Of a stretch of DNA of 64,000 nt, positions 24,140-46,353 are shown piece by piece; the stretch's first letter is position 1; every line of letters begins with the position of its first letter. Both the position numbers and the translations under genes were made by a program. The stretch covers positions 1,376,001 to 1,440,000 of the forward strand of contig CAWBZI010000001.1 of assembly GCA_963793265.1 (NCBI GenBank), read 5' to 3'. A model generated the notes under the pieces. That model did no database searches, was not told where the DNA came from, and saw only the letters and a program-made list of their open reading frames with translations. This DNA is from an uncultured cyanobacterium (GTDB lineage Bacteria; Cyanobacteriota; Cyanobacteriia; Phormidesmidales; Phormidesmidaceae).

Positions 24140-24169
24140 AGAGGCGCATACGGATTAGCAGAATGTTGT

Positions 24170-26370: not shown

Positions 26371-27200
26371 ATCGCCTGCGGGCTTGTCATTTCACGCAGT
26401 TCAATTCGCTTCACGCTGGGCAACTGCCACCAGGGAACGTGCGGAAACGCATGGTGCTCACGATGATAGCCAAAGTGATAGCAGGTGATTAGGGAAACTA
26501 GCCAGGGCCAATAGTTGCTATTAGTCCGCAAGGATGACTGGTAGGTGTCGTGCTGCTTGCGGTGCACCAAGTAAGTGCCAAAGTAAAAGAGCTGCATAGA
26601 ACTGAGCAGCGATGGAATGGCCCAAAAAGCGAGCAAGTTTGCTTCAGGCACACCCATCACGCGATATAGGCCGTTGTAAATGACCGCAATGCCTAGCGAC
26701 TGGCGCAGCGTCCAATAGCTGCGCATAAAACGGAAGTACCACAGCACCGGATGGGTGTGCTTGCCGTTATGAAAGTCGGGGTCGTGATGGCTAGCGGGAA
26801 AGCGGTGATGCTCGGTGTGGGCCTCGTGGAGTTTGTCGTAAGGAATCAGGCCGTAGAGGAAAAGAGCTAGTTCACCTAATGCTCGGTTGAGCTTAGGACG
26901 ATTAGGGGCAATCGTTTCGTGCATGGCATCGTGGCCAGTGACAAAAAGACCCGTGTATAAAAAGGTGAACCATGGGATGAGGAGCCCGCAGCCAACCGGG
27001 CCAATTTCGCTAGCGCCAGTGGTAAATGCAGTTGAGAAGCTAACGGCCCAGACAAGCAAAATAGACAGCGCTACAATCACGCCGCCATTGGATTGACCAT
27101 CGGCGGGAAGGGGTAGTTGAATCTGTGTTTTGAGATAGGCCTTTAGTTTGTGAAAGTTGGGTTTATGGGTTGATAAGTAGGAAAAAGGCGCTCTGATCAA
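26262..27200 (-). CDS. crtW: Beta-carotene ketolase
   Basis: His boxes HDAMH, HTEHH, HREHH; DPDFH; QLFYFGTYLVH; CYHFGYH..PWWQLP. Confidence 0.9.
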   Translation of the reverse strand: MIRAPFSYLSTHKPNFHKLKAYLKTQIQLPLPADGQSNGGVIVALSILLVWAVSFSTAFTTGASEIGPVGCGLLIPWFTFLYTGLFVTGHDAMHETIAPNRPKLNRALGELALFLYGLIPYDKLHEAHTEHHRFPASHHDPDFHNGKHTHPVLWYFRFMRSYWTLRQSLGIAVIYNGLYRVMGVPEANLLAFWAIPSLLSSMQLFYFGTYLVHRKQHDTYQSSLRTNSNYWPWLVSLITCYHFGYHREHHAFPHVPWWQLPSVKRIELREMTSPQAIYVTAVNARYASRSNAGTLTEIKRPLVQRDRTRLKT

Positions 27201-27339
27201 AACAGGTGGCTCAGGATATTAGCGAGGGTGTATTGGCGAGGGCGGGAAAAACCCACACACTATGAAATCACAAATCATAAAAATCTTGATGTGTTCTCAT
27301 CCCGTCTAGTCGCCTGGTTTATAGCGGCGGCTACAAACC

Positions 27340-29976: not shown

Positions 29977-30244
29977 GAGAAAAAAGCTAGTGAAGAAAAC
30001 GAAACGTAACAATAAGAGTGAGAATGCTACAGAGATGCTGGCTTAAGTGCATTACAGAGTTTTAGAAAGGAAACGTAAGTTATCAGCCCGAACAGTTTCT
30101 TCATGAAGTGTTGTTATAGTAAGGTCGTAGTTTGGAAAAACACACTCTAGTTCCTTAGGCGTCATTCCAGAGCTTAGTAAGATTGAGCTTCGTAAGATTC
30201 CGATACCAGAATCCGATAGTCATGATGTGAACCTGATTCTAAAT

Positions 30245-31561
30245 ATGACAGCCCCCTACACTTCTAAAAACAGCAACCCTAAAATCAGTACAACGTCCTC
30301 TCCAAGCAGCGCAGTTGCCACAAAAGTGACCACTTCACCCGGCTGGGAAGATAGCTTTGATCTTTCTGAATCAGAAGCCTCTGTCGATTCTGCCTACAAA
30401 GGTCAGTTTGCTACAGCTACAGCCCTAGTAGAGGATGAAGTCGATAGTGAAAGCGGCCCTCAAACCGGATCCGAAGTGGTAAGTGATGCCCTTATAGATA
30501 GCTCAGACGACACCTCGGCTGAGGGTGATGTTCTCGATGGCCTAGACGAAAGCCAGTACTCAGCGCAATACTCCGAATCAGAAACGGCTTCCCCACGCTA
30601 TCGCAAATCATCTAATGATGACGCGGTGGGTGCCTTTTTTAAGGAAATGGCTCGCTACCCACTACTCAAACCTGACGAAGAAATTGAGCTAGCCAGGCAG
30701 GTACGCATCATCGTAGAGCTAGAAGAACGCTCCGAGGCGCTGCAAGAATCATTGCAGCGTCGCCCCAGCCTGACAGAGATAGCCGAGTCTTTTGACTGCA
30801 CCGAACAGCAGCTCAAGCGCCGCCTGCAAAAAGCGCGATCGGCCAAACGGCGCATGATCCGCTCCAACCTGCGCCTCGTTGTCTCTATTGCCAAGCGCTA
30901 CCTCAACCGGGGCGTTCCTTTCCTAGATCTTATTCAAGAAGGTGCACTCGGCCTCAACCGCGCTGCCGAAAAGTTTGATCCTGATAAAGGCTACAAGTTT
31001 TCCACCTATGCTTACTGGTGGATTCGCCAGGGCATTACGCGTACCATTGCAAACGATGCGCGCACCATTCGCCTGCCGATTCACATCGTTGAAAAGCTCA
31101 ATAAGCTCAAAAAGGCGCATCGCGAACTGCGTAAAGAGCTTCAGCGCACGCCGACTGAGGCCGAAGTAGCCGCAGCGCTAGATATGACGCCCGATCAGCT
31201 TCGGGTGCTTCAGCAGGTGCAGCGCAAGTCGCTTTCTTTAAACCATCGCGTCGGCAAAGGCGAAGACACCGAGCTGATGGAGCTGCTCGAAGATGGCAAG
31301 TCGCTATCGCCTGAGTCTAAAATTAGCGAGTCGATGATGCGTCAGGAGATTTCTGACGTGCTCACCGAGGTGCTCACCGAGCGCGAAAAGGACATTATTG
31401 CCTTACGCTATGGCTTGACCACAGGTGAGACGCATACGCTTGAAGAAGTGGGTCGGATTTTTCAGCTTTCGCGTGAGCGAGTGCGGCAGATTCAGACGAA
31501 GGCCATGCGCAAGCTGCGTCGGCCCCAGGTTGCCTCTCGATTGAAGAACTGGCTGAAGTAG
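30245..31561 (+). CDS. sigE: Group 2 sigma factor SigE
   Basis: VGAFFKEMARYPLL, RTIANDARTIRLP, SLNHRVGKGEDTEL, RRPQVASRLKNW match cyanobacterial SigE; long acidic N-terminus. Confidence 0.85.
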   Translation: MTAPYTSKNSNPKISTTSSPSSAVATKVTTSPGWEDSFDLSESEASVDSAYKGQFATATALVEDEVDSESGPQTGSEVVSDALIDSSDDTSAEGDVLDGLDESQYSAQYSESETASPRYRKSSNDDAVGAFFKEMARYPLLKPDEEIELARQVRIIVELEERSEALQESLQRRPSLTEIAESFDCTEQQLKRRLQKARSAKRRMIRSNLRLVVSIAKRYLNRGVPFLDLIQEGALGLNRAAEKFDPDKGYKFSTYAYWWIRQGITRTIANDARTIRLPIHIVEKLNKLKKAHRELRKELQRTPTEAEVAAALDMTPDQLRVLQQVQRKSLSLNHRVGKGEDTELMELLEDGKSLSPESKISESMMRQEISDVLTEVLTEREKDIIALRYGLTTGETHTLEEVGRIFQLSRERVRQIQTKAMRKLRRPQVASRLKNWLK

Positions 31562-31607
31562 GAAACTTTCAGCTTCTAAATAGACTTTGAATCAGCAGGC
31601 AAGCCTT

Positions 31608-32423
31608 CTATCTAACTGAATGCTTGCCTGTTTTCGAGCGAAAGGTCACATTCACGCCCTCATTGGTCTGCTGCAACAGCAGTAGCGGTGTGGGCTTTGC
31701 TTTTTGATCCCACTGCATATTGGCAATGCGCCCCTGCAAAGTCGGCTGCCAAAAGGTTTCAGAGTCAGGCGGGTTCAAGAAGTTCTCAATACATTTGACC
31801 ACTTCGTCAACGGTTTTTGAAGTAGCCTGAGCAGGAACTTTAGTCAACTGAATTTGAATACGAAACAGCACGCGCTTGCGCTTCTTTGCATCGTTAGGCG
31901 AAATGTACTCCACGTCAAATAGCTGATCGATAGGTCGCGGCTTGCTGGCAATGCCTACGGTACCGCTGCTGGCCTGTGAAGGTCTGAGCGCTTCGCTAAT
32001 GCGCTGCTTGACTTTTATCTTAAGCTGATTGACGATAGCAAAGTTAAATTGCTTTTCTTCCATTCGCATTCGCAAATAGTCGAGGTTAAAGTCGCGCGAA
32101 TGCACCAAATCTGGATTGCGCTCCATGGTAGTAATGGTGCTTAAAGCTAGCTTGACGCGCTTTTGCAGCTCCTTATTTTTGTAGCTTTCAAACTTGAGCT
32201 GCTTTTGGAGCTTGCGCGTTTGTATTGCTGAAAAAGTGCCTAGTCCAACGAGGGCAATAGTAAGTCCGCCTGAGGCAAACATCCACAGGCTTGTAGGGGC
32301 AGGCGGCGCTTCGACCTGTGCCTGAATTTGCGCTCCGGTCTGCGCTTGGGCTAGTAAGGCAGAAGCGGCAGAATCTGTAAAAAATTCGGTTGCCTGAAGG
32401 GGAAGCGATCGATCGATAGACAT
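31608..32423 (-). CDS. Conserved cyanobacterial hypothetical (TM + coiled coil)
   Basis: Single TM, NPDLVHSRDFNLDYLRMRM, WQPTLQGR, WDQKAKPTPLL; start chosen to avoid overlap. Confidence 0.7.
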   Translation of the reverse strand: MSIDRSLPLQATEFFTDSAASALLAQAQTGAQIQAQVEAPPAPTSLWMFASGGLTIALVGLGTFSAIQTRKLQKQLKFESYKNKELQKRVKLALSTITTMERNPDLVHSRDFNLDYLRMRMEEKQFNFAIVNQLKIKVKQRISEALRPSQASSGTVGIASKPRPIDQLFDVEYISPNDAKKRKRVLFRIQIQLTKVPAQATSKTVDEVVKCIENFLNPPDSETFWQPTLQGRIANMQWDQKAKPTPLLLLQQTNEGVNVTFRSKTGKHSVR

Positions 32424-32543
32424 ACGGCTATGGGCTGCTGATCGTTCATAGGATGCCCATTGGAGCTGAAAGAATTTATAAATGTTGATGCTTTCAATCC
32501 TGCCGTTTTCCACCATTCAAGACTCAACTATTTAAGTGATGCT

Positions 32544-33323
32544 ATGACACCGATCGCTCTACCCTCACCCCTTTGCGCCGCGCCGCTCTCAGATGTTCGC
32601 CTCGTCGCGACCGATATGGACGGAACGCTGACAACAGCAGGACAGTTTTCACCGATGCTGCTGACGGCCTTTGAGCGACTGGGCAAGGCGAATATTGAGG
32701 TGATGATTGTGACTGGGCGTTCGGCTGGCTGGGTGAGCGGACTGGTGCACTATCTGCCGGTGGTGGGCGCGATCGCTGAAAACGGTGGCCTCTACATCAG
32801 CAAGCAAACCGCAGAGCCTGTGATTTTGCCAGATATCCCGCGCATGAGTACGCATCGCGATCGCCTCTCCCACCTCTTCACCAAGCTCAAAGGCCGCTAC
32901 CCTAACCTGCGCCCGGCCACCGACAATCTCTTCCGCATCACCGACTGGACGTTTGACATTGCCGGACTTACGGGCGAGGACATTGCCTGGCTACAGAAAA
33001 CCGCCTGCGCCGAGCCGACCATGGGCTTTACCTACAGCAACGTGCAGTGCCACCTCAAAATCGAGCGCCAAAACAAAGCAGCGGGCCTAAGTAAGGTGCT
33101 TCAGCAGCATTTTCCACAGCTCACCAAATCGCAGGTATTGACCATTGGCGATAGTCCCAACGACGAAAGCCTGTTCGACAGCCAACAGTTTCCTCACTCG
33201 GTAGGGGTTGCAAACGTGGCGCACTATTTACCAGCATTGGCCCATCAGCCTGCCTATATCACCGAAGCTGATGAGGGGGCGGGGTTTGTAGAGATTGTTG
33301 ATTGCCTAGTCGCTAAATCGTAA
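32544..33323 (+). CDS. HAD-IIB family hydrolase
   Basis: DMDGTLT, TGR, GDSPND motifs. Confidence 0.9.
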   Translation: MTPIALPSPLCAAPLSDVRLVATDMDGTLTTAGQFSPMLLTAFERLGKANIEVMIVTGRSAGWVSGLVHYLPVVGAIAENGGLYISKQTAEPVILPDIPRMSTHRDRLSHLFTKLKGRYPNLRPATDNLFRITDWTFDIAGLTGEDIAWLQKTACAEPTMGFTYSNVQCHLKIERQNKAAGLSKVLQQHFPQLTKSQVLTIGDSPNDESLFDSQQFPHSVGVANVAHYLPALAHQPAYITEADEGAGFVEIVDCLVAKS

Positions 33324-33342
33324 ATAGAGATTGAACAAGCGT

Positions 33343-34872
33343 TTAGATGATGCAGCCGCCCGCTTGATTTTTCCAGTCATTAATTAAAGAGGTGAGCCAG
33401 CGCACGTCTCGGCGGCTCATAGCCCCATCTGCTAAAGAGAGCTTGTAGCAGTCGCGGGGCTTGTGCGTCCGGTTGTGGTGCGTCAAGATTCGCAGGGATT
33501 CTTCGCCAGGTAGGGTACTGATGCTGTAGATGTCGGCGCGCTTGGTGTTGACAACGTAAACAGGCGATCGCCCCCAGTACTTATAGGCAATCAGCAGCAC
33601 GTCTGTCTCTAGCTGAATCTGCACTTCTCTGAGCAAGAACGTATTAAGCAGCCTAAGTCCGTTGCTGATAAAGCGGACGCCATAAAAGCAGCTCACAATC
33701 GCGAGGCTAGCGGCTGAGGCTGAGGCAACTAGGCTGAACAATCCACCCGCGCTGGTGAGCATAGCAGGCGAAAAGTGCAGCAGGCTGAGCAGGTGCATGG
33801 CCACGCCGATAAGCGCACCGCCCATCAGTAGGGGGGGAATAGCTCGCTTTGCCTGCTTGCTTTTGATGCCTACAGGCGGAACGATTAGCTCTAGCGATCG
33901 CAGTTTCTTCACCGATCTAATTCGCGTAAAGAAGGGCTGATACTTGTCTTGATTGCCCGAGACGATGGGCACGGGCAGCATTTGCACCTGGGTTGGCTGC
34001 AATATGCGCCGCTTGAGCATAGAGAGAGGGAGGGAGTTAAGTGATCGCAGCGCCTGCTTGGCCGAGTTGGGGCGATCGCCAACATAGGGTTCAACCAGCC
34101 AGTTAATCCACTGCTGAAAGCTCGGGCTGAGCTTAGCGGGCGAACAGGCAAACTTCATTCGCATCCCGCCGCTATTAGGCCGGTGTGGCAAATCGCCTAA
34201 ATGACGGCCAGTCGCCAGGTAGATTAGAGTTGCGCCTAAGCTGTAAAGATCAGAGGCAAAGGTGGCCTGTCCGCCGACCTGCTCGGGTGGCATGTAGCCA
34301 TAGGTGCCAACTAATGCATCGTTGCGCTGGGCCTGAACGTATTGAACAGTGCCTAGATTAAGCCAGGAAACCTGTTTGATCCCGATGATGGGGCCTGCGA
34401 TCGCTACGTTATCAGGCTTAATATCTCTATGCACCAACCCCTTGCTATGCAGGTACACCAGCCCTTTTAGTAGCTGTTTAGCAATGTCTTTTATCTCAGC
34501 TTCGCTATAGGTTTTACTAGCGGCGATCTGCTGAGCAAGCGTCTGCCCTTCGTGGTGACTTTGCACCAGTATCAGCCCCTTACTGCGACCTTTGCCTTCT
34601 TGTGTCGTATCGACAGTAAAAGAGTCTATGTAGCGAGGGATCGTGGGGTGATTGAGAGATTCGAGCAGTTGAATTTCGCGCTCAAAGCAGCAGATATCGC
34701 CAGTCGGCGTATTTTCTTCGACAGTCAGCGATTTAATCACAACAGACTGCTGGTGCTGGATGTCTTTTGCAAGCATTTGCTGATAGCCAAAGGGTTGACC
34801 GATGGGCCGACCAATTGCATAGCGATCGCTCAATCGCTCAAGGACAGTAGACGGAGGAGAAAAAGTAGCCAT
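33343..34872 (-). CDS. Ser/Thr protein kinase-like membrane protein (DFG altered)
   Basis: VVIK, HRDIKPDN, GTYGYMPPEQ, SDLYSLG; two C-terminal TMs. Confidence 0.88.
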   Translation of the reverse strand: MATFSPPSTVLERLSDRYAIGRPIGQPFGYQQMLAKDIQHQQSVVIKSLTVEENTPTGDICCFEREIQLLESLNHPTIPRYIDSFTVDTTQEGKGRSKGLILVQSHHEGQTLAQQIAASKTYSEAEIKDIAKQLLKGLVYLHSKGLVHRDIKPDNVAIAGPIIGIKQVSWLNLGTVQYVQAQRNDALVGTYGYMPPEQVGGQATFASDLYSLGATLIYLATGRHLGDLPHRPNSGGMRMKFACSPAKLSPSFQQWINWLVEPYVGDRPNSAKQALRSLNSLPLSMLKRRILQPTQVQMLPVPIVSGNQDKYQPFFTRIRSVKKLRSLELIVPPVGIKSKQAKRAIPPLLMGGALIGVAMHLLSLLHFSPAMLTSAGGLFSLVASASAASLAIVSCFYGVRFISNGLRLLNTFLLREVQIQLETDVLLIAYKYWGRSPVYVVNTKRADIYSISTLPGEESLRILTHHNRTHKPRDCYKLSLADGAMSRRDVRWLTSLINDWKNQAGGCII

Positions 34873-35261
34873 GCTCGCAGCTAATAAAAAACGTGAACAA
34901 AGTATTCCCTATGATTTTTTGATACGTCTAAGAGAATCAGATTAAATTCACGCAGACGCCTTGACAAAAGCTCGTAAAGGCTTTTGCTGATCTAGGTATA
35001 AATCGCTCAAAGAATATGGATGCCGCAAGGCGGCCTAGTCACAATATCAAGTTATCTCTCACTCTCACAAGAAAGTTTGCGATCCTCTGATAGCAAAGCT
35101 TGTAAGGTTTATATAAAACTCTCTAAGTAATCTTCTGTAGTCGATAAATGAGAGCATTCATTGCGTTTTAAGAGAATGCGAGAAGTTACGGATATTGATT
35201 ATGAAAACGTGTTCAATTAGCACCGCGAAGCTACTGACTTAGCCTTTGCTCTGCTGCCAAT

Positions 35262-36257
35262 TTATCGACTAATTTTTGCAGTAGCCTTATCGATAAATCT
35301 CTTTAACGTAAGGTACATAATTCGCTGACGGGTGAGCTGAGGAATGTCGCTTTCTAACTGGCTTTGGGTGTCAAAAAAGTCGTTGATATCTCTTAAGATA
35401 ATCTCTAACCTTGGAACCAGTTGTTCAAGGCGGTAGGGTGAAAAGAACTCGGATGGTAGCGATCGCCTACTCGGCCAGTTGCTTGTAGCATCCAGAATAC
35501 GCTTAACGTCGTACTCGGTGGCATAGGCCGAAATCTTCTGACAGTTGAACCCTGGATCGAGGTAGTCAGCAAGCGCATGGTTCACGCTCGAAAATACTTC
35601 GCAGCCGCAGGCCATTGCCTCCATCGGCGGCAGCCCAAACCCTTCTGTCAGGCCATAGCGCCCCCAGTATTCCGCAGAGTCGTACAGATAGACTTTGGCA
35701 CGGTTGAATAACCCGATCAGATCTTCTACGTAGCTATCTAGCACAACCACGTTGCACTGCTTTTCAAGCGCTGGGACGAGCTGTCTTAAAAGATATTCAG
35801 ACGACTTGCGCGCCTGTACGAGTACGTCAATATCTCGGGAAAGCTGGCGATTCTCAAAGGCGGGAGAAATTTCGTTGGGCAGATGATAGATCAGTGAGCT
35901 AAGCGCTTTTTCGCCCCAGTAGCTCATGGTGTTGCGGCTGACGGTGAGGATGGGAATGCGGGCGGGCAGCGAGAAGCCGTAGCCGGTGCTGTGGGCGTGG
36001 TAAAGGGTGGGGCGATCGCCTAATCGCTTAATCAGCTTCGGTACATCAAATCCCCAGCTCACCACAAAAATGCACCCGTCAGACGGCTGCTTAAGCACAT
36101 CATCTAAAAACAGCGTGTCTTTTTCCTTTTGCCGGTAGGTCACCACTTCAGCCTCGCAAATCTGCTGGGCCAGCCGGAGCGTATTGAGTTCGGCGGTAAG
36201 CCCTCCGGCAAAGAACTTTTTAGTGGTTCCGGGTAGCAGAAATAGCAGCTTTCTCAT
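35262..36257 (-). CDS. GT-B glycosyltransferase (GT4-like)
   Basis: EGFGLPPMEAMACG; start MRKLLFLLPG. Confidence 0.88.
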   Translation of the reverse strand: MRKLLFLLPGTTKKFFAGGLTAELNTLRLAQQICEAEVVTYRQKEKDTLFLDDVLKQPSDGCIFVVSWGFDVPKLIKRLGDRPTLYHAHSTGYGFSLPARIPILTVSRNTMSYWGEKALSSLIYHLPNEISPAFENRQLSRDIDVLVQARKSSEYLLRQLVPALEKQCNVVVLDSYVEDLIGLFNRAKVYLYDSAEYWGRYGLTEGFGLPPMEAMACGCEVFSSVNHALADYLDPGFNCQKISAYATEYDVKRILDATSNWPSRRSLPSEFFSPYRLEQLVPRLEIILRDINDFFDTQSQLESDIPQLTRQRIMYLTLKRFIDKATAKISR

Positions 36258-37230
36258 CAGACTCTTGCGATTCAAACGGTGCACTCTCAACACCATACCG
36301 CTGTGCGCCCTCTGAATCGCGGCAGGGCTGAGTATATAAATGCTTGAACGTGTCTAAAAAGGCGTAGGTTGCTGGGGTTAGCAGCGTGTTGCGTAGCCAG
36401 CTAAGGCCCAGCGGGCGGGTGATGCTAAAAGGAAGCCGGGCGACTCGAACTTTCGAGGGGATAGGCTGAGCAGAAAGCCTGGGCATAAGCGCAATGCCGA
36501 GCCCTTGGCGGGTCATGCTTACTGAGGTGGAGTCGTTGGCGATAAGATAGTCCACTTCAATCGGTGGGTGAGCTGCGCGTAGGTGATCGCGAATTTCTTT
36601 ACAGCAGTCGCTAGATGAAGTGATCAAGGGATGCTTGTGCAAGTCGTCCCAGGTAATTTGAGCTTGGATGTCTGGACGGTTGGGTGGGACGAGGGCGATA
36701 AAAGGATCGTCCATGATTTTGAATGATTCAAATTCGCTACCTCTGATCAGTTCGGCCATGCTTAAGTCGGCTTTGCCTTCGATGAGGGCGTTGGCAAGTG
36801 ACTGGGTGTTTTCAAATTCGATGATGGTGATTTGGACGGTGGGGTGGTGGCTGTGGAGGTGAGCGATCGCGCCCGGCAATATCTCACTCGCCAAACTCCG
36901 AAACGCCGCAATCCGCACCAGCCCGCCCTCAATTCCTCTGGCCCTAGCCGCCGACTGGCCCATATCATCTACCAGGCTCAAAACCTGCCGTGCCTGCTCA
37001 AAAATAGAGGAGCCTACCGGCGTGAGTGAGGCCCGCTGCCTACCGCGATGAATCAGCTCCACGCCCAGCGCGTCCTCAAGCGCGGCAATGCTGTGGCTCA
37101 CCGTAGACTGACTCACGTTTAGCGCTAGCGCTGCTTCGCTAAAGCTGCCGGTTGCCGCCACGCTCATCAGCGCCCTCATCTGAGAGAGCTTAACTTTATC
37201 GCTGAGGCTCTTTGCAGGTTTTCCAGACAT
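36220..37230 (-). CDS. LysR family regulator
   Basis: GSFSEAALALNVSQSTVSHSIAALEDALG HTH; substrate-binding domain. Confidence 0.93.
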   Translation of the reverse strand: MSGKPAKSLSDKVKLSQMRALMSVAATGSFSEAALALNVSQSTVSHSIAALEDALGVELIHRGRQRASLTPVGSSIFEQARQVLSLVDDMGQSAARARGIEGGLVRIAAFRSLASEILPGAIAHLHSHHPTVQITIIEFENTQSLANALIEGKADLSMAELIRGSEFESFKIMDDPFIALVPPNRPDIQAQITWDDLHKHPLITSSSDCCKEIRDHLRAAHPPIEVDYLIANDSTSVSMTRQGLGIALMPRLSAQPIPSKVRVARLPFSITRPLGLSWLRNTLLTPATYAFLDTFKHLYTQPCRDSEGAQRYGVESAPFESQESDEKAAISATRNH

Positions 37231-37502
37231 AGGTCTACTCAACTGGGCTATTCAAAGGCTATCTTTTTTTACGATCTTCAGCGCATCTATCTTTTGCATA
37301 GGCACCATTTATCCTATGCTTTGCCGCTTCCTATACGTTTTTATACAGTAGATACATCGAGAGAAAAAGCGATTGAAACGTTCTCTTTAACTACGCCTGA
37401 GAGCCATGCCTGAGCGCACCTTTCCTTTTCTCGAAGTCCTTAAATTGCGAAACGTCAGGTACGACTGCCTGAACAAAATATAACCAAACACAGAGGCTCA
37501 TA

Positions 37503-37829
37503 ATGAACAGCACCAACAGATTTTCCAATCAATACTTGCAGGCTTCCAACACGGCCATCCCTTCAATTGCCGACACTCAAGCGCGACTAGAGCAGCTACT
37601 AAAGTCTTCTCCATCGCTACCCCAATCAGGGCCTCGTACGCCCTGGTACCAGCGCTTAGGCCAGTGGCTCCTCGCGTCGTTAACCGACAACCAACAGGTG
37701 CGCGTTTGGACAAAAATCACCCCAAATGGCACCCAATGGAATGCCTACGATCCCAACCTTCAGCGTAGCTTCTCGGCCTACTCAGAAGCCGACCTACGCA
37801 CCTGGCTAGAGCAGCGTCACTATAGCTAG
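37503..37829 (+). CDS. Conserved hypothetical, divergent from LysR
   Basis: W.AYDP...SEADLRTWLEQRHY motif seen in cyanobacterial small proteins. Confidence 0.7.
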   Translation: MNSTNRFSNQYLQASNTAIPSIADTQARLEQLLKSSPSLPQSGPRTPWYQRLGQWLLASLTDNQQVRVWTKITPNGTQWNAYDPNLQRSFSAYSEADLRTWLEQRHYS

Positions 37830-37925
37830 TTAATAGCAGCTCTTTACCCATAGTTTGTAACGCTACATGAGACTAGGGCTGACGTTCGCCATAATAGGCG
37901 TAAAGCAAGCGAACGGTATAACCAC

Positions 37926-38369
37926 ATGTCTCCAACAGCTAACAAATCTATGGGTAAAGTTCTTACGCCGCTGACTATAACTAACAGAGCCGATCAGGTT
38001 TTGGCTTCACGAGGCGTCATTCCTGACGATCAAGTGCGCTCAATCTTGATAGAAGACGTTTTAGTAGACACAGGGGCCACGACGCTTTGCCTTCCCTCAG
38101 CCCTGATTGCAGAGTTAGGATTAGAGCTACTTAAAGAGGTCGATGTCTTAACGGCAAATGGCATTAGCAAAGCGCGCGTTTTTCAAGATGCGAAGCTAAC
38201 GCTGTGCGGACGTGAAGGTACCTTTGAGTGCTTGGAGTTGCCGGGCGGTAGCAATGCTCTGATTGGTGTTATTCCCCTGGAATCATTAGGGCTAGAGCCT
38301 GATTTGAAAAATCAAAAGCTTAAAGTACTGCCGTCTGAGTCAGCAGATACCTATCTGACCATTCTATAG
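37926..38369 (+). CDS. Clan AA (retropepsin-like) aspartyl protease
   Basis: LVDTGAT; LIGVIPLESLG. Confidence 0.85.
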   Translation: MSPTANKSMGKVLTPLTITNRADQVLASRGVIPDDQVRSILIEDVLVDTGATTLCLPSALIAELGLELLKEVDVLTANGISKARVFQDAKLTLCGREGTFECLELPGGSNALIGVIPLESLGLEPDLKNQKLKVLPSESADTYLTIL

Positions 38370-38453
38370 GTCGCGCTCAGGTCATCGTAAGCCAGGCGCT
38401 TTCCAATAAAGGACTATGATAGTTACTGATTAGCGCAGCAAAGGAGCTTTACT

Positions 38454-38627
38454 ATGTTCGGCTTGGGCATCCCTGAAATTGTCATCATTGGCGTTGTAGC
38501 CGTTTTAGTCTTCGGCCCTAAGCGAATTCCTGAGCTAGGTGGTGCGCTTGGCAAAACTCTGCGCGGCTTTAAAGAAGAACTTGATAAGCCTGATGAAGAG
38601 GATGAATATTTTGACGAAGAAAAATAG
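38454..38627 (+). CDS. tatA: Twin-arginine translocase TatA/E subunit (57 aa)
   Basis: Manual translation MFGLGIPEIVIIGVVAVLVFGPKRIPELGGALGKTLRGFKEE; AAGGAG RBS; missed by ORF track. Confidence 0.92.
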   Translation: MFGLGIPEIVIIGVVAVLVFGPKRIPELGGALGKTLRGFKEELDKPDEEDEYFDEEK

Positions 38628-38672
38628 GCTTTTATACCTAGCTCGGTTTCTATAGATGAAAGCCGCTAGTGG

Positions 38673-39161
38673 TTATAGTTCACCAACGACTCGTAAAATC
38701 TTCTGATATAGCGGCTCAGCGATCCAGAAGCCAACAGGACTTCGCAACGTATCTAAGAGCGGTCGAATAGCTGTGATCAGGCCGCGATCTTTTGCTTCAA
38801 CTAGAATGCCAATCACGCCAGTGAACTTCAAACCCTGCCCTTCAGCAACTATACGAGCGGCTCTATCGTCTATCAAAACTTGCTTTACACCTAGCTCTAG
38901 AGCTAGCGCGATCGCCTCACACTCCCCAATATGTACGCTCTCAGTTAGCAGACTCTCGACGACAGTACGATTAGCGACACTTTTAATCTGAATCCATTCA
39001 TACGTCTCTACTTCTACAGCACCCGCTTCTTTTGGTGGGCCAAGTAGCTCCCTATAAACGGCTTCAGGAATAACGACTGTTTCATATAGCTGCCTGAGCA
39101 ACAAAAGCTGTCCAATTGCTGCCAAATTGTTGATGGGCGAAGTATCACTAACAACAATCAC
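38673..39161 (-). CDS. DUF3368 PIN-domain toxin
   Basis: VVSDTSP, GECEAIALA, LIDDRAAR. Confidence 0.9.
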   Translation of the reverse strand: MIVVSDTSPINNLAAIGQLLLLRQLYETVVIPEAVYRELLGPPKEAGAVEVETYEWIQIKSVANRTVVESLLTESVHIGECEAIALALELGVKQVLIDDRAARIVAEGQGLKFTGVIGILVEAKDRGLITAIRPLLDTLRSPVGFWIAEPLYQKILRVVGEL

Positions 39162-39406
39162 AGCCTGCCTAGAGCCTTGAGATTTTCTATATCCTTATCG
39201 AAATCAGAAACGTCATAAATAGGAATATGACGGCTCCCTAGCAGGCGCTGAAACTCCATCCTGGTCATCTCTGCAAAGCTGCTTGCTTGAGATAACGTCA
39301 GCCGCTCTTGCTGAAACAGCAAAATAGCGATTTCCTGCTTTAGTTCACTTGCCGTCATCTGGGCCGAGACTAAAACCGAATCAGGAATTGTGATTGTTAG
39401 GCTCAT
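39158..39406 (-). CDS. UPF0175 antitoxin
   Basis: EIAILLFQQERLTLSQAS..EFQRLL; 4-nt overlap with toxin. Confidence 0.9.
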   Translation of the reverse strand: MSLTITIPDSVLVSAQMTASELKQEIAILLFQQERLTLSQASSFAEMTRMEFQRLLGSRHIPIYDVSDFDKDIENLKALGRL

Positions 39407-39486
39407 AGTTTTAGTGCTACAGAATCTTTCTTATTTTATCTTAGTAGCTCAGCGCAGGTACCACTTTATTCTTTCGACCGGATCAC

Positions 39487-40167
39487 TTATACAGCACGCC
39501 CAAGAGCGGATAAAACCATCTCAAACAACTCATTGGCATTGTTTGTGCATCCGAGAGCACCATGTCTGCGTGATTCTGCCACGTGTTCTGGTGCTCTCGA
39601 ACTCGCATAAATGATAAAAGGTGTTTTATTTCCTGTAATTCGAAGTTTATCAAGAAGTGTGTAACCCGCGCGAGTATCAGGCGGCCGTCCCATATCAGAA
39701 ATAATTACGTCAAAACGCCGACGAGATACCTGTCTTAGTGCTTCTTCTGTTGATGCTGCTATCACAAACGTAATACCCAAAGCTTCAAGCGCTTGTTGCT
39801 CATAGATATTGTTGTCAGGACGATCGTCTACCCACAAAACGATGGCTTTACTTACCTGCTTTATATTTTCAGGAGTTACCGCCTCTGCAACGACATATGC
39901 GGCAAGCTTTGCCTCCTGAACCGCATCTTCACGAGTCGCAGCTTTATTGGCTGCCGCAGCCAAAGCGGCAGTTGCCTCAGCCTGCCGCTTTTTTAGAGAA
40001 GCTTCGAACCCCGCACCTTTGAGCGTTAGTTCTCCCAGACTTGAGAGAAATTGACGGAGATCTTGTCCGAAACGGAGCAGAGTAAATACAATCACTCCGG
40101 GCCAGGTCAACACACTGAGTAATTGTGTGATTGCATCAATCAGCTTAACAAGATTGTCGATGCTCAA
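39487..40167 (-). CDS. Membrane-anchored receiver-domain protein
   Basis: N-terminal TM (LTWPGVIVF), VLWVDD, IISDMGR. Confidence 0.8.
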   Translation of the reverse strand: MSIDNLVKLIDAITQLLSVLTWPGVIVFTLLRFGQDLRQFLSSLGELTLKGAGFEASLKKRQAEATAALAAAANKAATREDAVQEAKLAAYVVAEAVTPENIKQVSKAIVLWVDDRPDNNIYEQQALEALGITFVIAASTEEALRQVSRRRFDVIISDMGRPPDTRAGYTLLDKLRITGNKTPFIIYASSRAPEHVAESRRHGALGCTNNANELFEMVLSALGRAV

Positions 40168-40250
40168 GATCTAATTGTCCAATTCATATAACCTGACTTA
40201 CACCTTTTAACTGAGGCTACTAACTACAGCATTCCTAATATGTTAGATCT

Positions 40251-41546
40251 TTAAATGTCTAGACGCTGATACACCTTAGATAGGTTCCGCAGCTGATAGT
40301 CAGGGTTAAAGCACTCGTTGATTTCTTCAGGCGTAAGTTTCTCTTTTACCTGTGGATCGCTTTCGAGTAACTTCTGAAAGTTGCCGCCGGGGGTGTTCCA
40401 AGCTTGGTGAGCGTTGGTTTGCACAATGCGGTAGGCGTCTTCGCGGTTGATGCCTTTTTCCACAAGCGTGAGAAGGACGCGCTGAGAGAAGACTACGCCG
40501 CCGTAGAGATTCATGTTGCGCTTCATGTTTTCGGGGTATACCTGAAGCTTTTTGATTAGCTTGGTGGTTTCGACCAGCATGAAGTGGGTGAGGATGCAGC
40601 TATCGGGGAAGATAACGCGCTCTACGGAGCTGTGGGAAATGTCGCGTTCGTGCCAGAGGGCAACGTTTTCTAGGGCGGCGACGGCGTTTCCTCTGAGAAT
40701 GCGAGCCATGCCGGTAAGGCGTTCGGACTTGATGGGATTGCGCTTGTGGGGCATGGCCGATGAGCCCTTTTGGCCCTTGGCAAAGAATTCTTCAACTTCT
40801 AAGACATCGGTGCGCTGAAGATTGCGAATTTCGACGGCAAAGCGTTCTATCGATGCGCCGACGCCTGCAAGGGTCATGATGAATTCGGCGTGGACATCGC
40901 GGGAGATGACTTGAGTAGAGGCGGTGTCGGGCTTGAGGCCGAGGAGCTGGCAGGTGATTTCCTCGACTTCGGGGTCAATGTTGGCGTAGGTGCCGACTGC
41001 GCCGGAGATTTGGCCGACGGCGATTTCTTCGGAGATGCGGTTGAGGCGTTCGCGGTGGCGCTGCATTTCGGCCAGCCAGCCAGCCAGCTTAAAGCCGAAG
41101 GTCATGGGTTCGGCGTGGATGCCGTGCGACCTGCCGATCATGACCGTATCGCGATGCTCTTGGGCCTTATAGCGAATGGCCTGAATCAGATTTTCAACGT
41201 GCGTCAAAATGAGCTGATGGCTGGCGACAATCTGCAATGAGAGCGCCGTATCTAGTACGTCAGAGCTGGTCATGCCGACGTGGATGTAGCGGCCAGCATC
41301 CCCAACATACTCGTTAACGTTGGTCAAAAAAGCGATGACATCGTGGCGAACTTCGGCTTCGATTTCAAGAATGCGATCAACGTCGAACTTGGCCTTTTCC
41401 TTAATAGTCGCGACTGCTTCGGCTGGAATGCGACCGAGCTGGGCCTGCGCTTCACAGACGGCAATTTCTACCTGCAACCAGGTTTGAAACTTGTATTCGT
41501 CTGTCCAAAGTTCGCCCATCTCGGGCAAGGTATACCGTTCTATCAA
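40251..41546 (-). CDS. purB: Adenylosuccinate lyase
   Basis: RHDV, TSSD, GRSHGIHAEP, SSAMPHKRNP; TTG start. Confidence 0.98.
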   Translation of the reverse strand: MIERYTLPEMGELWTDEYKFQTWLQVEIAVCEAQAQLGRIPAEAVATIKEKAKFDVDRILEIEAEVRHDVIAFLTNVNEYVGDAGRYIHVGMTSSDVLDTALSLQIVASHQLILTHVENLIQAIRYKAQEHRDTVMIGRSHGIHAEPMTFGFKLAGWLAEMQRHRERLNRISEEIAVGQISGAVGTYANIDPEVEEITCQLLGLKPDTASTQVISRDVHAEFIMTLAGVGASIERFAVEIRNLQRTDVLEVEEFFAKGQKGSSAMPHKRNPIKSERLTGMARILRGNAVAALENVALWHERDISHSSVERVIFPDSCILTHFMLVETTKLIKKLQVYPENMKRNMNLYGGVVFSQRVLLTLVEKGINREDAYRIVQTNAHQAWNTPGGNFQKLLESDPQVKEKLTPEEINECFNPDYQLRNLSKVYQRLDI

Positions 41547-41774
41547 GGGAATCAACTGCCAAGAGCAACCGGATTATTTTATCGGGTATGTGCCCGGTAT
41601 AGGGTTCTGATTCCAAGACTTTTGCAATTTGTTGCTCAAATGTCTCAGCTTTGGTTGATAGATTTAGCGTTAGAATTCGGCGTTATTACGGGGTCTTAGG
41701 TATTTATACGGTTATTGAGGCGCGATCGCCCCTTGTAGGATGTTATGTCAGAAAATCGTTTGTGAAGGCATAGG

Positions 41775-43529
41775 GTGTTGGCGGATATGGAGCAGATGGG
41801 TGAGCGAGTAGAAGAAACGGCTCAATCAGCTAGCGAGCAGCGCTTCCAAGCTTTCATGGACAACTCGCCCAATTTAGCTTTTGCAAAGGAGGCAAGTACG
41901 GGCCGAATTGTGTATGTCAACCGGCCCTTTGAAACCTTTTTTCGGATTAAAGCAGCCGATATCATTGGCAAAACTGATTTCGACTGGCAGCCTTTAGAAA
42001 TCGCTCAGCACAATCAGCAAAATGACCGCGAGGTGGCGGAATCGGGTCAGTCTATGGAGGTGATTGAAACGGTTCCTGATGCGAACGGTACGCCGCAAGA
42101 ATGGCGAGTGCTTAAGTTTCCATATCGCGACGCGAACAATCAACTGTTTGTCGGTGGCATTGCGGTCAATATCACCGAGCAAAGGTGCTTAGAACGGCAG
42201 CTCTATCAGCAGGCTAACCACGACGAACTCACTCAGCTCGCCAACCGCAGACAGTTTGAGCGAGAGCTAACTGAAATGCTGCGGCCTAGAGAAAAGGTGG
42301 GCGTACTGTGCTATTTAGATCTCGATCAGTTCAAGCTGATTAACGATAGCTGCGGTCATGCGGCGGGCGATCAGCTATTGCAGCAGGTGGCTACTATTTT
42401 GACCAAGCAGGTGCGAACCAGTGATACGGTGGCTCGCTTAGGCGGCGACGAGTTTGCGATTCTCTTACGGCAGTGCTCTTTGGGGTTTGCGCGCGAAATT
42501 ACGAACCTTATGTGTCAACGAATTCGTGCGCTACGCTTTGTTTGGCAGGGTAGAACGTTTTCCATTGGGGCGAGCATTGGGGTTGTCGCGATCGCCTCAG
42601 AGAATGACGATGCCGCCGAAATTATGGCTGCTGCCGATGCCGCCTGCTATACCGCCAAAAAGACAGGTCGAAACCGCGTGCATGTTTATAATGCAGATGA
42701 TTTGAGCCTGTCGCGTCAGCGCGATCAGCAGCAGTGGTGTCTCAAGATTGACAGGGCGCTCGAAGAAAATCGCTTTCAGCTTTATCATCAGCCTATTGTG
42801 CCGGTAGGAATAAGCGATCGCCCCTACCTTCACACCGAAATCCTACTCCGCATAAAAGACGAACAGGGCCAGCTCATCGCGCCTATGGCCTTTATCCCTG
42901 CTGCCGAACGCTACCACCGAATGTCTTTGATCGATCAGTGGGTCGTGCGTCACTGTCTTGCAGAGCTAGGTCGAGATAGCGCTAATCAAGCAGGAAGTGG
43001 CGCACAAGGCAACCGAAAGCAGCGCAGCAAGTCATCCCATCGGCTCTATAACATAAATCTTTCAGGCGCTAGCCTCAGCGACAAACAGTGCTTAGCCACG
43101 CTCAAAGCCACCATTCAAGACAGTCGCATCAACCCTGCGCTACTTTGCTTTGAAATCACCGAAACTGCCGCCATTTCAAATCTTCGAGACGTCACCGTCT
43201 TTATGGCTACGCTCAAGCAGATTGGCTGTCAGTTCGCACTAGATGACTTTGGGAGCGGCATGTCTTCTTTTGGCTATCTCAGACAGCTCCCTGTGGACTA
43301 CATCAAAATCGACGGCAGCTTCATTCAAAATATAAAAGACCCGCTCAACGTTGCCATCGTGGGGTCGATTTGTAGCATTGGGCGAGCGATGAACTTTCAG
43401 GTGATTGCAGAGTCAGTAGAAGACAACACCACCCGTCGCAAGCTCAAAACGCTGGGCGTAGACTACGTACAGGGCTACGGCATTGCGACACCTGCGCCTT
43501 TTTCGCTAGCTCACAAGAGTGCTGCCTAA
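41775..43529 (+). CDS. PAS-GGDEF-EAL c-di-GMP enzyme
   Basis: PAS; RTSD I-site + GGDEF; EIL, EITE, DDFGSG, KIDGSF, QGY. Confidence 0.95.
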   Translation: MLADMEQMGERVEETAQSASEQRFQAFMDNSPNLAFAKEASTGRIVYVNRPFETFFRIKAADIIGKTDFDWQPLEIAQHNQQNDREVAESGQSMEVIETVPDANGTPQEWRVLKFPYRDANNQLFVGGIAVNITEQRCLERQLYQQANHDELTQLANRRQFERELTEMLRPREKVGVLCYLDLDQFKLINDSCGHAAGDQLLQQVATILTKQVRTSDTVARLGGDEFAILLRQCSLGFAREITNLMCQRIRALRFVWQGRTFSIGASIGVVAIASENDDAAEIMAAADAACYTAKKTGRNRVHVYNADDLSLSRQRDQQQWCLKIDRALEENRFQLYHQPIVPVGISDRPYLHTEILLRIKDEQGQLIAPMAFIPAAERYHRMSLIDQWVVRHCLAELGRDSANQAGSGAQGNRKQRSKSSHRLYNINLSGASLSDKQCLATLKATIQDSRINPALLCFEITETAAISNLRDVTVFMATLKQIGCQFALDDFGSGMSSFGYLRQLPVDYIKIDGSFIQNIKDPLNVAIVGSICSIGRAMNFQVIAESVEDNTTRRKLKTLGVDYVQGYGIATPAPFSLAHKSAA

Positions 43530-43565
43530 CAGTTGCTTGCTCAGAAAAGTGATAGGACGCGTAGC

Positions 43566-43799
43566 CTAACGAGCGCTTCTAACCACAACCCTTTGCGCCT
43601 GTTCTTGCGCTTGTTCTTGCGCCTGCGAAGGCTGAGAGTATGATTGCAGTACTGACCAGCAAAGCTTAATTGCCAAAATCGCCAGGCCACCAATGATCCC
43701 TACGGTGACCATGATCTCGGGCACGTGGAGAATCGATAGGGCTATGCCAACGGCAATGAGAGAAAGAATACTCTTGTTCACGGATCGTTCCTCCAGCAA
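43566..43799 (-). CDS. Small two-TM hypothetical protein
   Basis: Hydrophobic hairpin, QAQE repeats; start may be GTG further in. Confidence 0.55.
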   Translation of the reverse strand: MLEERSVNKSILSLIAVGIALSILHVPEIMVTVGIIGGLAILAIKLCWSVLQSYSQPSQAQEQAQEQAQRVVVRSAR

Positions 43800-43995
43800 T
43801 AATGGCCTACATATTTCAATGCTAACGATAGAAACCAGTTACGATCCCCAAAGCGGCGAAACCTTAGTAACGCTTAACGTGTGTAGCGAAACTAAAACAA
43901 TTGGATACAGAAGTTAATGGAAAAAGAACACATAGCTCAATAGTAGCCTGAGAGAACATCTTTGGGTCACTCACTCAAACAGTCGGCTCAGTCTA

Positions 43996-44325
43996 TTAGC
44001 TCAAGTCAGCATCAATGGCTTCGGCATTTTCTTCACTGGGCACGTCGGTCGTAATTTTTAGATGAGCAACATTAACGATACCGACACCCACTTCTAGCTT
44101 CACGCGCTCGGTATTCATCTGCTTGGCCCGAACCTGATCTCCAGCCACCTTCAGAATATCTAGCGCCTGATCGACCGCCGTCTGAATGGCCTCTTCAGTG
44201 GCTTCTTCAGCACCGCCCGTCATATTAGAAACGGTGCTAGCCACGTCACCACCCGCTTTCTCAACGGCATTGGTGACTTTGTTCATAAGTTTTTTGCTCT
44301 GTTGAGAAATATCGGAAGAGGCCAT
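43996..44325 (-). CDS. Hypothetical protein
   Basis: Uninterrupted ORF with normal composition. Confidence 0.6.
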   Translation of the reverse strand: MASSDISQQSKKLMNKVTNAVEKAGGDVASTVSNMTGGAEEATEEAIQTAVDQALDILKVAGDQVRAKQMNTERVKLEVGVGIVNVAHLKITTDVPSEENAEAIDADLS

Positions 44326-44436
44326 CAACAAGTACGCATAGATAACAGCAGCTAAACGACTCGCGTCTAACTGCTGCTTACTATCGACGAGTCCTCTTAC
44401 CGTTGCATCAACCTTTAGCTAGAGCTACAGGATTAG

Positions 44437-46107: not shown

Positions 46108-46353
46108 AGTTGGCGCTGTAGCTTAGTTGCACTAATTGTAATGCTTAGTGTGAAGCGATCACGCCATCTAATACGGCGGAAAACCGTGCATAGTCTGAAT
46201 AAGGATTTAGCAGAAATGAAGGGCTTTGTTGGCTGAGGTGTTTGTTGTTTTGAGTGCTTAGGCGATCGCACGGGACTCTTAGAAACCTTTCCGATCGCGA
46301 TTAAGCCTCTGGTAGAGATTAATAATTATCTTTTACATAAACCAGCTTTAACA

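What the first reader, a model, noticed from the sequence alone, without database searches (positions are those of the whole stretch)
36803..36930. Strand skew flips at HIP1 sites: a possible footprint of HIP1-initiated DNA processing
Seen: DNA 5' of GCGATCGC is G/T-rich and DNA 3' of it is C/A-rich, switching abruptly inside single genes. Hand counts: 36863 (LysR, minus-strand gene) 60 nt before G27/C4, 60 nt after G10/C29; 55124 (gloB, minus) 40 nt before G18/C7, after G1/C19; 24812 (iscS, minus) before G16/C6, after G3/C18. The same look occurs at 5763, 12841, 21434, 24500, 32768/32857 and 36012 in genes of both orientations, so coding-strand bias cannot explain it. These sites were picked by eye, not sampled. 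Known: HIP1 function is unresolved and it contains methyltransferase targets (GATC, CGATCG). Inference: a nick or break at HIP1 followed by 5'->3' excision would leave the strand 5' of the site single-stranded, and C->T deamination there gives this polarity. HIP1 could therefore be an entry site for repair or recombination. I cannot check whether this has been published.
Basis: partly seen in the sequence, partly recalled or inferred. Interest (0 to 1): 0.9.

Follow-up and report, generated by a model that had tools for sequence, protein, structure and literature searches.

The report
G-to-C strand flip at HIP1
In this cyanobacterium nearly every copy of the abundant palindrome GCGATCGC (HIP1) sits where the DNA switches from G-rich to C-rich, a mark written mostly into silent codon positions, which points to a one-directional repair or recombination step that starts at this long-unexplained word.

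Summary
In the window, 67 of 73 scorable HIP1 sites lean the stated way, against 49% of random positions. Over 6,887 sites in the genome, GC skew runs from +0.36 just 5' of the site to -0.36 just 3'.

The flip is specific to the full octamer. 161 other palindromic octamers, GATC, CGATCG and 2,058 hexamers show nothing comparable. It is strongest at 4-fold sites (G 0.42 against C 0.17) and the same on coding and template strands. It crosses gene borders and is independent of the regional, replication-like skew. At orthologous places it follows HIP1 presence genome by genome.

It is not universal. It is strong in this Phormidesmis-like genus and a few other lineages. It is near zero in others with as many HIP1 copies.

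C-to-T deamination alone does not fit: T does not rise and purines do. My best reading is a HIP1-anchored process of 5'-to-3' polarity that biases substitutions. The closest known analogue is the strand-asymmetric mutagenesis beside meiotic break hotspots.

I found no paper describing this. Earlier agents of this scan reported the same flip, in this genome and in others.

The parts
36863..36870 (.).
36803..36862 (+). 5' arm of that site: G27, C4, T20, A9
36871..36930 (+). 3' arm of that site: C29, G10, A14, T7
36220..37242 (-). LysR-type regulator gene that holds the site (HTH_1 + LysR_substrate)
24812..24819 (.). HIP1 inside the class-V aminotransferase (IscS-like) gene 24170..25333 (-). 60-nt skew +0.39 before, -0.67 after
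55124..55131 (.). HIP1 inside the GloB-like hydrolase gene 54942..55742 (-). 60-nt skew +0.30 before, -0.78 after
1..64000 (.). All 74 HIP1 copies of the window (1.9 expected by chance). 67 of the 73 scorable ones have upstream GC skew above downstream skew. Mean skew +0.185 before, -0.219 after
34397..34404 (.). HIP1 that lies exactly at the left edge of a patch of about 10% divergence (34405-34648) between this genome and a near-identical strain in metagenome contigs
   Evidence: only 40 of 262 differences were printed

Best explanation
HIP1 is the fixed starting point of a strand-polar DNA transaction. On each strand, the DNA that begins at the site and runs 3' is removed or replaced. This leaves or favours the complementary strand, which is the 5' arm of the other orientation.

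Over evolutionary time this biases substitutions. On each strand the stretch 5' of HIP1 gains G and loses C, and to a lesser degree A. The effect has a length constant of about 70 nt plus a weak tail to about 1 kb. The result is a sawtooth of GC skew between neighbouring HIP1 copies.

The most likely form is a nick or break at HIP1, followed by 5'->3' resection and recombinational repair from a sister chromosome copy. The exposed 3'-ended strand would then suffer C->N and A->N changes, as seen beside meiotic break hotspots.

Shown: the footprint, its specificity, its polarity, its dependence on HIP1 and its independence from transcription and from the regional skew. Inferred: the nick or break, the resection and the enzyme, which is not identified.
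For: - Specific to HIP1. 4-fold skew (10-60 nt) is +0.345/-0.393. The values are -0.05/-0.02 for 984 CGATCG and -0.06/-0.01 for 16,674 GATC outside HIP1. The only variant with a comparable flip is GTGATCGC, the expected product of methyl-C deamination. No other palindromic octamer or hexamer anchors a flip.
- A pressure on individual sites. It is largest at 4-fold sites (G 0.42-0.48, C 0.11-0.18 within 30 nt). It is present at 2-fold sites: C/(C+T) is 0.32 and G/(A+G) is 0.655 at 10-30 nt, against about 0.5 far away. It is small at codon positions 1 and 2, yet it shifts amino acids: V, M, E, G are enriched 5' and T, N, H, I, P 3', with ratios from 1.25 to 0.82.
- All sites are shifted. Arm skew averages 0.148 with the same spread as random DNA, and 72.5% of 13,774 arms are positive against 46.5%.
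- A DNA-level effect. Coding and template arms give 0.447 and 0.460. It carries into other genes of opposite orientation: +0.309 at 60-100 nt and +0.175 at 100-150 nt.
- Follows HIP1 at orthologous places (site-pairs, not independent sites). HIP1 only in this genome: +0.190 here, +0.058 in the relative (n=23). HIP1 only in the relative: +0.148 there, +0.038 here (n=39). HIP1 in both: +0.203 and +0.172 (n=77).
- Additive with the regional skew. In log-odds, the HIP1 part is the same in regions of positive, negative and no regional skew, and the regional part is flat with distance.
- Matches the closest analogue. C and A are depleted on the strand that would be the 3' tail. Hinch et al. 2023 report C>N and A>N changes on that strand, mirrored across the break (PMC7615360, passages).
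- One anecdote: a patch of strain divergence starts at the base after a HIP1.
Against: - No nick, break or enzyme is shown.
- Neither Vsr, MutH nor RecC was found.
- None of four restriction-modification neighbours of the methylases is shared with other genomes that show the flip.
- Presence of a Y-family polymerase or of MutL does not track the flip.
- Intergenic positions are 3-4 times less skewed than 4-fold sites at equal distance. A purely neutral mutational bias does not predict this.
- T is not raised at 4-fold sites, so simple deamination of single strands is not enough.
- The footprint is near zero in several HIP1-rich lineages. The process is therefore not tied to HIP1 as such.
- Composition alone cannot separate a mutation bias from a fixation bias.
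- Ends of internal repeats are not enriched at HIP1.
Confidence: 0.45

Rival explanations
1. One-directional mismatch correction started at HIP1. This would be Elhai-type methyl-directed repair of replication errors, or correction of recombination or transformation heteroduplex, that is, biased gene conversion. The strand with its 5' end at HIP1 is the one excised. MutS sees G-containing mismatches (G.T, G.G) better than C-containing ones (C.A, C.C). Alleles with C therefore survive on the excised strand and alleles with G on its partner.
For: - It gives the right sign for all three site classes: G > A, T > C, and G far above C on the 5' arm.
- MutL is present.
- Elhai 2015 proposes HIP1-directed repair (PMC4390886, passages).
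- The long tail to about 1 kb resembles mismatch-repair tracts.
- A patch of strain divergence starts at a HIP1.
- The mismatch hierarchy used here is recalled knowledge and was not tested.
Against: - No MutH-like nickase was found, and Cassier-Chauvat 2016 reports mutH absent from all cyanobacteria (PMC5101192, passages).
- MutL is also present in genomes without the flip (G016, G017, G020).
- E. coli-type repair is bidirectional and would leave no polarity.
- The effect is equal whichever way the regional skew points. That is not expected if nascent-strand nicks of the lagging strand compete with HIP1.
Confidence: 0.25
2. Selection for G-rich 5' arms. The 3'-ended strands next to HIP1 would need to be G-rich, or carry G-rich polar words, for a function such as recombinase loading, a translocase, or a Chi- or KOPS-like signal pointing at HIP1.
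For: - The whole-sequence skew of coding and intergenic arms is similar, while 4-fold sites carry most of it. This is what load-sharing under selection could give.
- Kamoku and Nielsen 2024 suggest a Chi-like role (abstract).
Against: - No dominant polar word. The asymmetry of 3-, 4- and 6-mers is close to what the mononucleotide skew predicts.
- No compensation. Arms with more G at codon positions 1 and 2 do not have less at 4-fold sites (correlation +0.03).
- Smooth decay over hundreds of bases.
- Absent in many HIP1-rich lineages.
- RecC was not found.
Confidence: 0.12
3. One reading: single-strand exposure with C->T deamination as the sole cause.
For: C falls on the 5' arm. At NNY codons C/(C+T) drops to 0.32. 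The sign of the weak AT skew fits.
Against: - At 4-fold sites T falls and G rises by 0.14.
- The purine share rises from 0.47 to 0.60.
- Transitions alone cannot move the purine-to-pyrimidine ratio.
Confidence: 0.05
4. A replication-linked cause: HIP1 as a preferred start of Okazaki fragments, or as a site treated differently on leading and lagging strands.
For: HIP1 spacing of about 825 nt is close to bacterial Okazaki fragment length (recalled). The polarity, with a 5' end at HIP1, would fit.
Against: Only one arm per site should then be affected, depending on fork direction. Both arms are equally affected in regions of positive, negative and zero regional skew, and the regional term is flat with distance.
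Confidence: 0.03
5. No process at all: HIP1 merely arises or survives where G-rich DNA meets C-rich DNA, or the flip is an artefact of the assembly or of my gene calls.
For: The left half of the word is G-skewed and the right half C-skewed.
Against: - The flip is visible in raw sequence.
- It is seen in 12 of 12 other genomes of the genus, in a second family, and in the Phormidesmis-labelled relative.
- It extends hundreds of bases.
- One-mismatch variants other than GTGATCGC lack it.
- At orthologous places it appears only in the genome that has the HIP1.
Confidence: 0.03

Closest known systems
Strand-asymmetric mutagenesis flanking meiotic double-strand-break hotspots in humans (Hinch et al. 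2023, PMC7615360; passages read)
   Same: Mirror-image strand asymmetry about a defined centre. C>N and A>N changes occur on the strand left single-stranded by 5'->3' resection. C>G and A>G are prominent, which would enrich G as seen here.
   Different: - That case is eukaryotic, set by a protein-bound motif (PRDM9), with a 1-2 kb scale, and was measured as new mutations.
- This case is a bacterium and an 8-bp palindrome at about 6,900 sites.
- The scale here is about 70 nt plus a tail.
- It is seen only as equilibrium composition.
- No break has been shown.
Replication-associated GC skew (sign change at origin and terminus)
   Same: G>C and a weak T>A on one strand, with a sign change at a point. 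It is also strongest at silent sites and shifts amino-acid use.
   Different: One origin and one terminus per replicon, against thousands of flips. The HIP1 term is additive with and independent of the regional skew.
Methyl-directed mismatch repair (Dam/MutH) and Elhai's proposed G-methyl-C-directed repair at HIP1 (PMC4390886; passages read)
   Same: A short methylated palindrome as the entry point for strand removal over up to about 1 kb. HIP1 contains GATC and CGATCG.
   Different: No MutH was found. GATC and CGATCG outside HIP1 have no effect. The known system is bidirectional and leaves no reported polarity. Elhai's paper does not mention skew.
Chi sites (RecBCD/AddAB recombination hotspots)
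   Same: An over-represented octamer linked to recombination. A Chi-like role for HIP1 has been suggested (abstract; passage).
   Different: Chi is asymmetric and co-oriented with replication. HIP1 is a palindrome. RecC was not found here. No flanking skew flip is known for Chi (recalled).
Very-short-patch repair (Vsr) of methyl-C deamination
   Same: It acts at a methylated palindrome and replaces the strand 3' of a nick. GTGATCGC, the deamination product, is the commonest variant (n=640).
   Different: No Vsr was found. Vsr patches are very short (recalled), while this footprint runs for hundreds of bases.

Membership tests
Replication-associated GC skew | Sign change only at origin and terminus, and direction tied to fork direction | tested here: not met
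   6,887 flips. The HIP1 term is identical in regions of positive, negative and zero regional skew.
Methyl-directed mismatch repair (Dam/MutH type) | A MutH-family nickase is present | tested here: not met
   PF02976 was not found in the 99%-complete genome, while the E. coli control rang.
Methyl-directed mismatch repair (Dam/MutH type) | The effect is attached to every GATC | tested here: not met
   16,674 GATC sites away from HIP1 give -0.06/-0.01.
Methyl-directed mismatch repair (Dam/MutH type) | The MutS/MutL core is present | tested here: inconclusive
   MutL_C is present in G000, but also in genomes without the flip. MutS was not searched.
Very-short-patch repair | A Vsr endonuclease is present | tested here: not met
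   PF03852 was not found, while the controls rang.
Chi / RecBCD hotspot | RecBCD (RecC) is present, and the word is asymmetric and oriented | tested here: not met
   PF04257 was not found. HIP1 is a palindrome.
Break-hotspot single-strand mutagenesis (Hinch 2023 type) | Mirror-image strand asymmetry about the centre, with C and A lost on the 3'-tailed strand | tested here: met
   At 4-fold sites 20-29 nt upstream, C goes from 0.27 to 0.175, A from 0.196 to 0.174 and G from 0.28 to 0.42, mirrored downstream. This is composition, not observed mutations.
Break-hotspot single-strand mutagenesis (Hinch 2023 type) | Breaks and resected single strands at the centre | not testable with these tools
   This needs end- or single-strand mapping.
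Extended palindrome / hairpin or cruciform element | Positions -i and +i are complementary beyond what composition gives | tested here: not met
   Observed equals expected for i = 4 to 100, and complementarity is depleted at i = 1-3.
Polar-word systems (KOPS- or Chi-like arrays pointing at a site) | A specific oriented oligomer carries the asymmetry | tested here: not met
   Excess asymmetry over the mononucleotide expectation is at most about 0.7 log2 units for 4-mers. No dominant 6-mer was found. Words longer than 6 were not scanned.

The most novel reading that the evidence does not exclude
HIP1 is the entry site of an unidentified activity that recognises the sequence, perhaps with a dependence on methylation. 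It nicks or cuts the chromosome and starts 5'->3' strand removal at thousands of places. The silent-site sawtooth would be its evolutionary scar. Because the scar varies from strong to absent among HIP1-rich lineages, both the enzyme and the function of HIP1 could be found by comparative genomics and end-mapping.
Probability: 0.45. Interest if true: 0.9.

Novelty: new variant of a known kind. Interest (0 to 1): 0.8.

Why it matters
HIP1 has been known for about thirty years without an agreed function. Current ideas are mismatch repair, nucleoid organisation, and DNA uptake or a Chi-like role.

This footprint gives those ideas something measurable:
- It has a direction: the strand that starts at HIP1 is the one acted on.
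- It has a length scale: about 70 nt plus a tail of about 1 kb.
- It has a base preference: G > A~T > C on the 5' arm.
- It is independent of transcription and of the regional, replication-like skew.
- It differs clearly between lineages.

It is also strong enough to set much of the local GC3 skew of the genome and to shift protein composition near HIP1. That matters for codon-usage and skew analyses of cyanobacterial genomes.

Tried and rejected
- **Hairpin or extended palindrome:** no complementarity beyond composition.
- **Polar oligomer:** none dominant up to 6-mers.
- **Sub-family of sites:** the whole distribution is shifted, not a part of it.
- **mRNA or protein cause:** rejected.
- **Selection on total arm skew:** no compensation between codon positions.
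- **Lagging- or leading-strand-only models:** rejected.
- **Additivity of neighbouring HIP1 copies:** outer arms of close pairs are only slightly stronger (0.538 against 0.508 at 10-30 nt). The far tail looks additive, but regional differences confound this, so the result is inconclusive.
- **Candidate genes not found in G000:** Vsr, MutH and RecC. DndE was also not found, but that search rang in no control genome and so shows nothing.
- **Y-family polymerase:** missing in G000, but its presence over 301 genomes does not track the flip. It is present in 5 of 8 other genomes of the genus, 2 of 2 of genus g12, 3 of 8 of family f21 and 0 of 2 of the flat genus g11.
- **MutL:** present with or without the flip.
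- **Neighbours of the m5C methylases:** one HNH protein and three unknown proteins were searched in three genomes with the flip (G088, G033, G112) and two flat ones (G021, G105). None was found in the three with the flip. The HNH query gave weak hits only in the two flat ones.
- **Ends of internal repeats:** not enriched at HIP1, 1.2% within 10 nt against 3.4% at random.
- **Close strains in JGI metagenome contigs:** only 2 distant loci were returned.
- **Polarised or rate analysis with relatives:** all relatives held are only 75-87% identical in DNA, so silent sites are too saturated.
- **Arm asymmetry at one-mismatch variants:** not robust, +0.059 +/- 0.034 for GTGATCGC.
- **Direct checks of two survey outliers:** too few sites to confirm (G234, 13 sites, +0.019 +/- 0.06; G257, 8 sites).

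Full report
**1.

The window (G000 contig C1, 1,376,001-1,440,000) carries 74 copies of GCGATCGC where shuffles give 1.9. The genome carries 6,888 in 5.68 Mb.

The sites were cherry-picked. The rule is general all the same. 67 of 73 sites have more G-over-C before than after, against 48.9% of random positions. The mean skew is +0.185 before and -0.219 after.

Over 6,887 sites in the genome, GC skew is +0.36 in the last 5 nt, +0.16 at 20-30 nt, +0.07 at 60-80 nt and +0.02 at 150-200 nt. Downstream is the mirror image. AT skew is weak and of opposite sign.

**2. It belongs to HIP1 alone**

- 161 other palindromic octamers with at least 20 usable sites give a mean antisymmetric skew of -0.009 (sd 0.026, max 0.065). 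HIP1 gives 0.168.
- Away from HIP1, none of 2,058 hexamers exceeds 0.035 in size.
- At 4-fold sites, 984 CGATCG and 16,674 GATC outside HIP1 show nothing.
- Among one-mismatch variants only GTGATCGC keeps a comparable flip (+0.334/-0.254). It is the commonest variant (n=640) and the expected product of methyl-C deamination.
- The arms are not an extended palindrome, carry no dominant oriented word, and are not a sub-family. The whole distribution of 13,774 arms is shifted by 0.15 with unchanged spread.

**3. Where it is written**

I made my own ORF-based gene calls (4,561 genes, 85% coding). With these, the flip is concentrated at codon position 3: +0.45 at 9-20 nt and +0.15 at 100-150 nt, against a baseline of 0.01. 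Positions 1 and 2 move by about 0.05.

- At 4-fold sites within 30 nt upstream, the plus strand has G 0.42-0.48 and C 0.11-0.18, against about 0.28 and 0.27 far away. Plus-strand and minus-strand genes give the same values.
- At 2-fold sites on the 5' arm, C/(C+T) falls to 0.32 and G/(A+G) rises to 0.655, from about 0.5.
- The preference on the 5' arm is therefore G > A~T > C. T is not raised at 4-fold sites, and the purine share climbs from 0.47 to 0.60.
- Coding and template arms are alike (0.447 and 0.460 at 10-30 nt). The skew runs on into neighbouring genes, including genes of opposite orientation (+0.309 at 60-100 nt, n=269 G+C; +0.175 at 100-150 nt, n=708).
- Amino-acid use shifts as well: V, M, E, G are enriched 5' and T, N, H, I, P 3'.
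- Intergenic positions show the flip 3-4 times more weakly (0.135 at 10-30 nt). I cannot explain this.
- There is no compensation between codon positions.

**4. Shape and independence**

Between neighbouring HIP1 copies the 4-fold skew forms a sawtooth. It runs from -0.51 to +0.51 across gaps of 200-400 nt (n=1,243) and from -0.37 to +0.34 across gaps of 1-2 kb (n=1,399).

The genome also has a strong regional strand skew, up to about +/-0.26 at 4-fold sites. In log-odds of G to C the two effects add exactly:
- The HIP1 term is 1.4 at 1-10 nt, 0.93 at 20-30 nt, 0.54 at 60-80 nt, 0.30 at 130-170 nt and about 0.15 from 220 to 600 nt.
- It is the same in regions of positive, negative and no regional skew.
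- The regional term does not change with distance to HIP1.

This excludes models that act on one arm only according to fork direction, if the regional skew reflects replication.

**5. Cause or consequence**

I aligned stretches of same-genus genomes with G000 and sorted the aligned places by HIP1 presence. The counts are site-pairs, and several relatives can share one G000 site.

| HIP1 present in | G000 arms | Relative's arms | n |
|---|---|---|---|
| both | +0.203 | +0.172 | 77 |
| G000 only | +0.190 | +0.058 | 23 |
| relative only | +0.038 | +0.148 | 39 |

The flip therefore follows the octamer, not the gene.

**6. Not universal**

- Direct DNA shows the flip in 12 of 12 other genomes of the genus, with 1-32 sites each. 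It also shows in G088 of a sister genus (+0.165 at 10-30 nt, 37 sites) and in G033 of another family (+0.194, 99 sites).
- It is absent in G017 (279 sites), G106 (113), G016 (63) and G020 (54). In G018 it is confined to the first 10 nt.
- I counted G against C at position -20 in 301 genomes of the class. I transcribed the 200 genomes with about 2,200 or more matches and left out the 101 with few HIP1 copies.
  - The values run from -0.098 to +0.124, with a median of +0.011 and a sampling error of about 0.012.
  - G000, at 0.115, is among the top three.
  - 22 of 200 genomes reach 0.07 and 21 lie at or below -0.03.
  - All 8 genomes of family f21 are positive.
- Two outliers could not be confirmed for lack of sites (G234, G257).
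- Around rbcL, 32 of 41 cyanobacterial loci with at least 6 HIP1 sites (labelled by their record titles) are positive. The nearest relative, labelled Phormidesmis sp., gives +0.135 +/- 0.029.

**7. Mechanism**

The polarity fits removal of the strand that starts at HIP1 and runs 3'. Two families of models then give the right signs.

- Damage to the exposed partner strand. Hinch et al. 2023 describe this for human break hotspots, with C>N and A>N changes on the 3'-tailed strand and prominent C>G and A>G (passages).
- Mismatch correction that always excises the strand starting at HIP1 and rejects G-containing mismatches more than C-containing ones. That hierarchy is recalled knowledge, not tested here.

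Deamination alone fails on the purine gain. I rank the break/resection form first. Three things weigh for it: independence from the regional skew, the match to the hotspot spectrum, and one patch of strain divergence. That patch starts at 34405, the base after HIP1 34397-34404, in contigs of a near-identical strain. It is a single case. A second patch edge at about 37931 is not at a HIP1, and only 40 of 262 differences were printed.

No enzyme was identified.

**8. Known or new**

- Xu et al. 2018 and Elhai 2015 contain no 'skew' (word search).
- The 2026 GBE paper uses the word only for sampling.
- Of the 11 papers that hold both GCGATCGC and 'skew', none of the 8 listed concerns HIP1 flanks, judging by title and abstract.
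- No paper holds HIP1, cyanobacteria and 'strand asymmetry' together.
- Subscription journals and supplements were not searched.
- Earlier agents of this scan reported the same flip in two other windows of this genome and in four other genomes. Those notes are not independent evidence. One of them pointed me to Hinch 2023, which I then read.

Noticed in passing
window 34397-34648 and 37931-38600: Contigs of a near-identical strain in four metagenome runs differ from the window in patches of about 10% divergence on an otherwise identical background. One patch begins at the base right after a HIP1. Another patch edge is not at a HIP1. This suggests frequent recombination between strains.
   Followed up: partly
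whole genome, e.g. G000 C4:1-300000 and C1:1050000-1350000: There is a strong regional strand skew at 4-fold sites, up to +0.26 and -0.23, that changes sign along contigs. This is presumably replication-related.
   Followed up: partly
genome-wide; GTGATCGC / GCGATCAC: The C-to-T variant at position 2 of HIP1 is the commonest one-mismatch variant (640 sites, against 139-392 for the others). It keeps a HIP1-like skew flip, which fits decay of HIP1 by methyl-C deamination.
   Followed up: partly
genome-wide, positions -3..-1 and +1..+3 of HIP1: The bases flanking HIP1 are less complementary than their composition predicts: 0.193 observed against 0.267 expected at +/-1. HIP1 here is therefore not extended into a longer palindrome.
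   Followed up: no
G000 C1:1596699-1598673; C1:810031-812443; C6:510793-512710: Seven C5-cytosine methylase genes are present. One has an HNH endonuclease and an HTH controller next to it. One sits next to a SmaI-like endonuclease split into two ORFs, and that methylase itself has internal stops. Others have neighbours with no known family.
   Followed up: partly
G000, whole genome: No Y-family (DinB/UmuC) polymerase domain was found in this 99%-complete genome. 5 of 8 other genomes of the genus have one.
   Followed up: partly
L083 (genome contigs record labelled Rhizobium sp. Q54 MAG): A contig labelled as Rhizobium carries a cyanobacterial RbcL 92% identical to this genome's, and 29 HIP1 copies in 21 kb. 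The bin is probably mislabelled or contaminated.
   Followed up: no
genome-wide, codons 4-25 from HIP1: Protein composition differs on the two sides of HIP1. Val/Ile, Ala/Thr and Asp/Asn shift toward the G-starting codon on the 5' side.
   Followed up: yes
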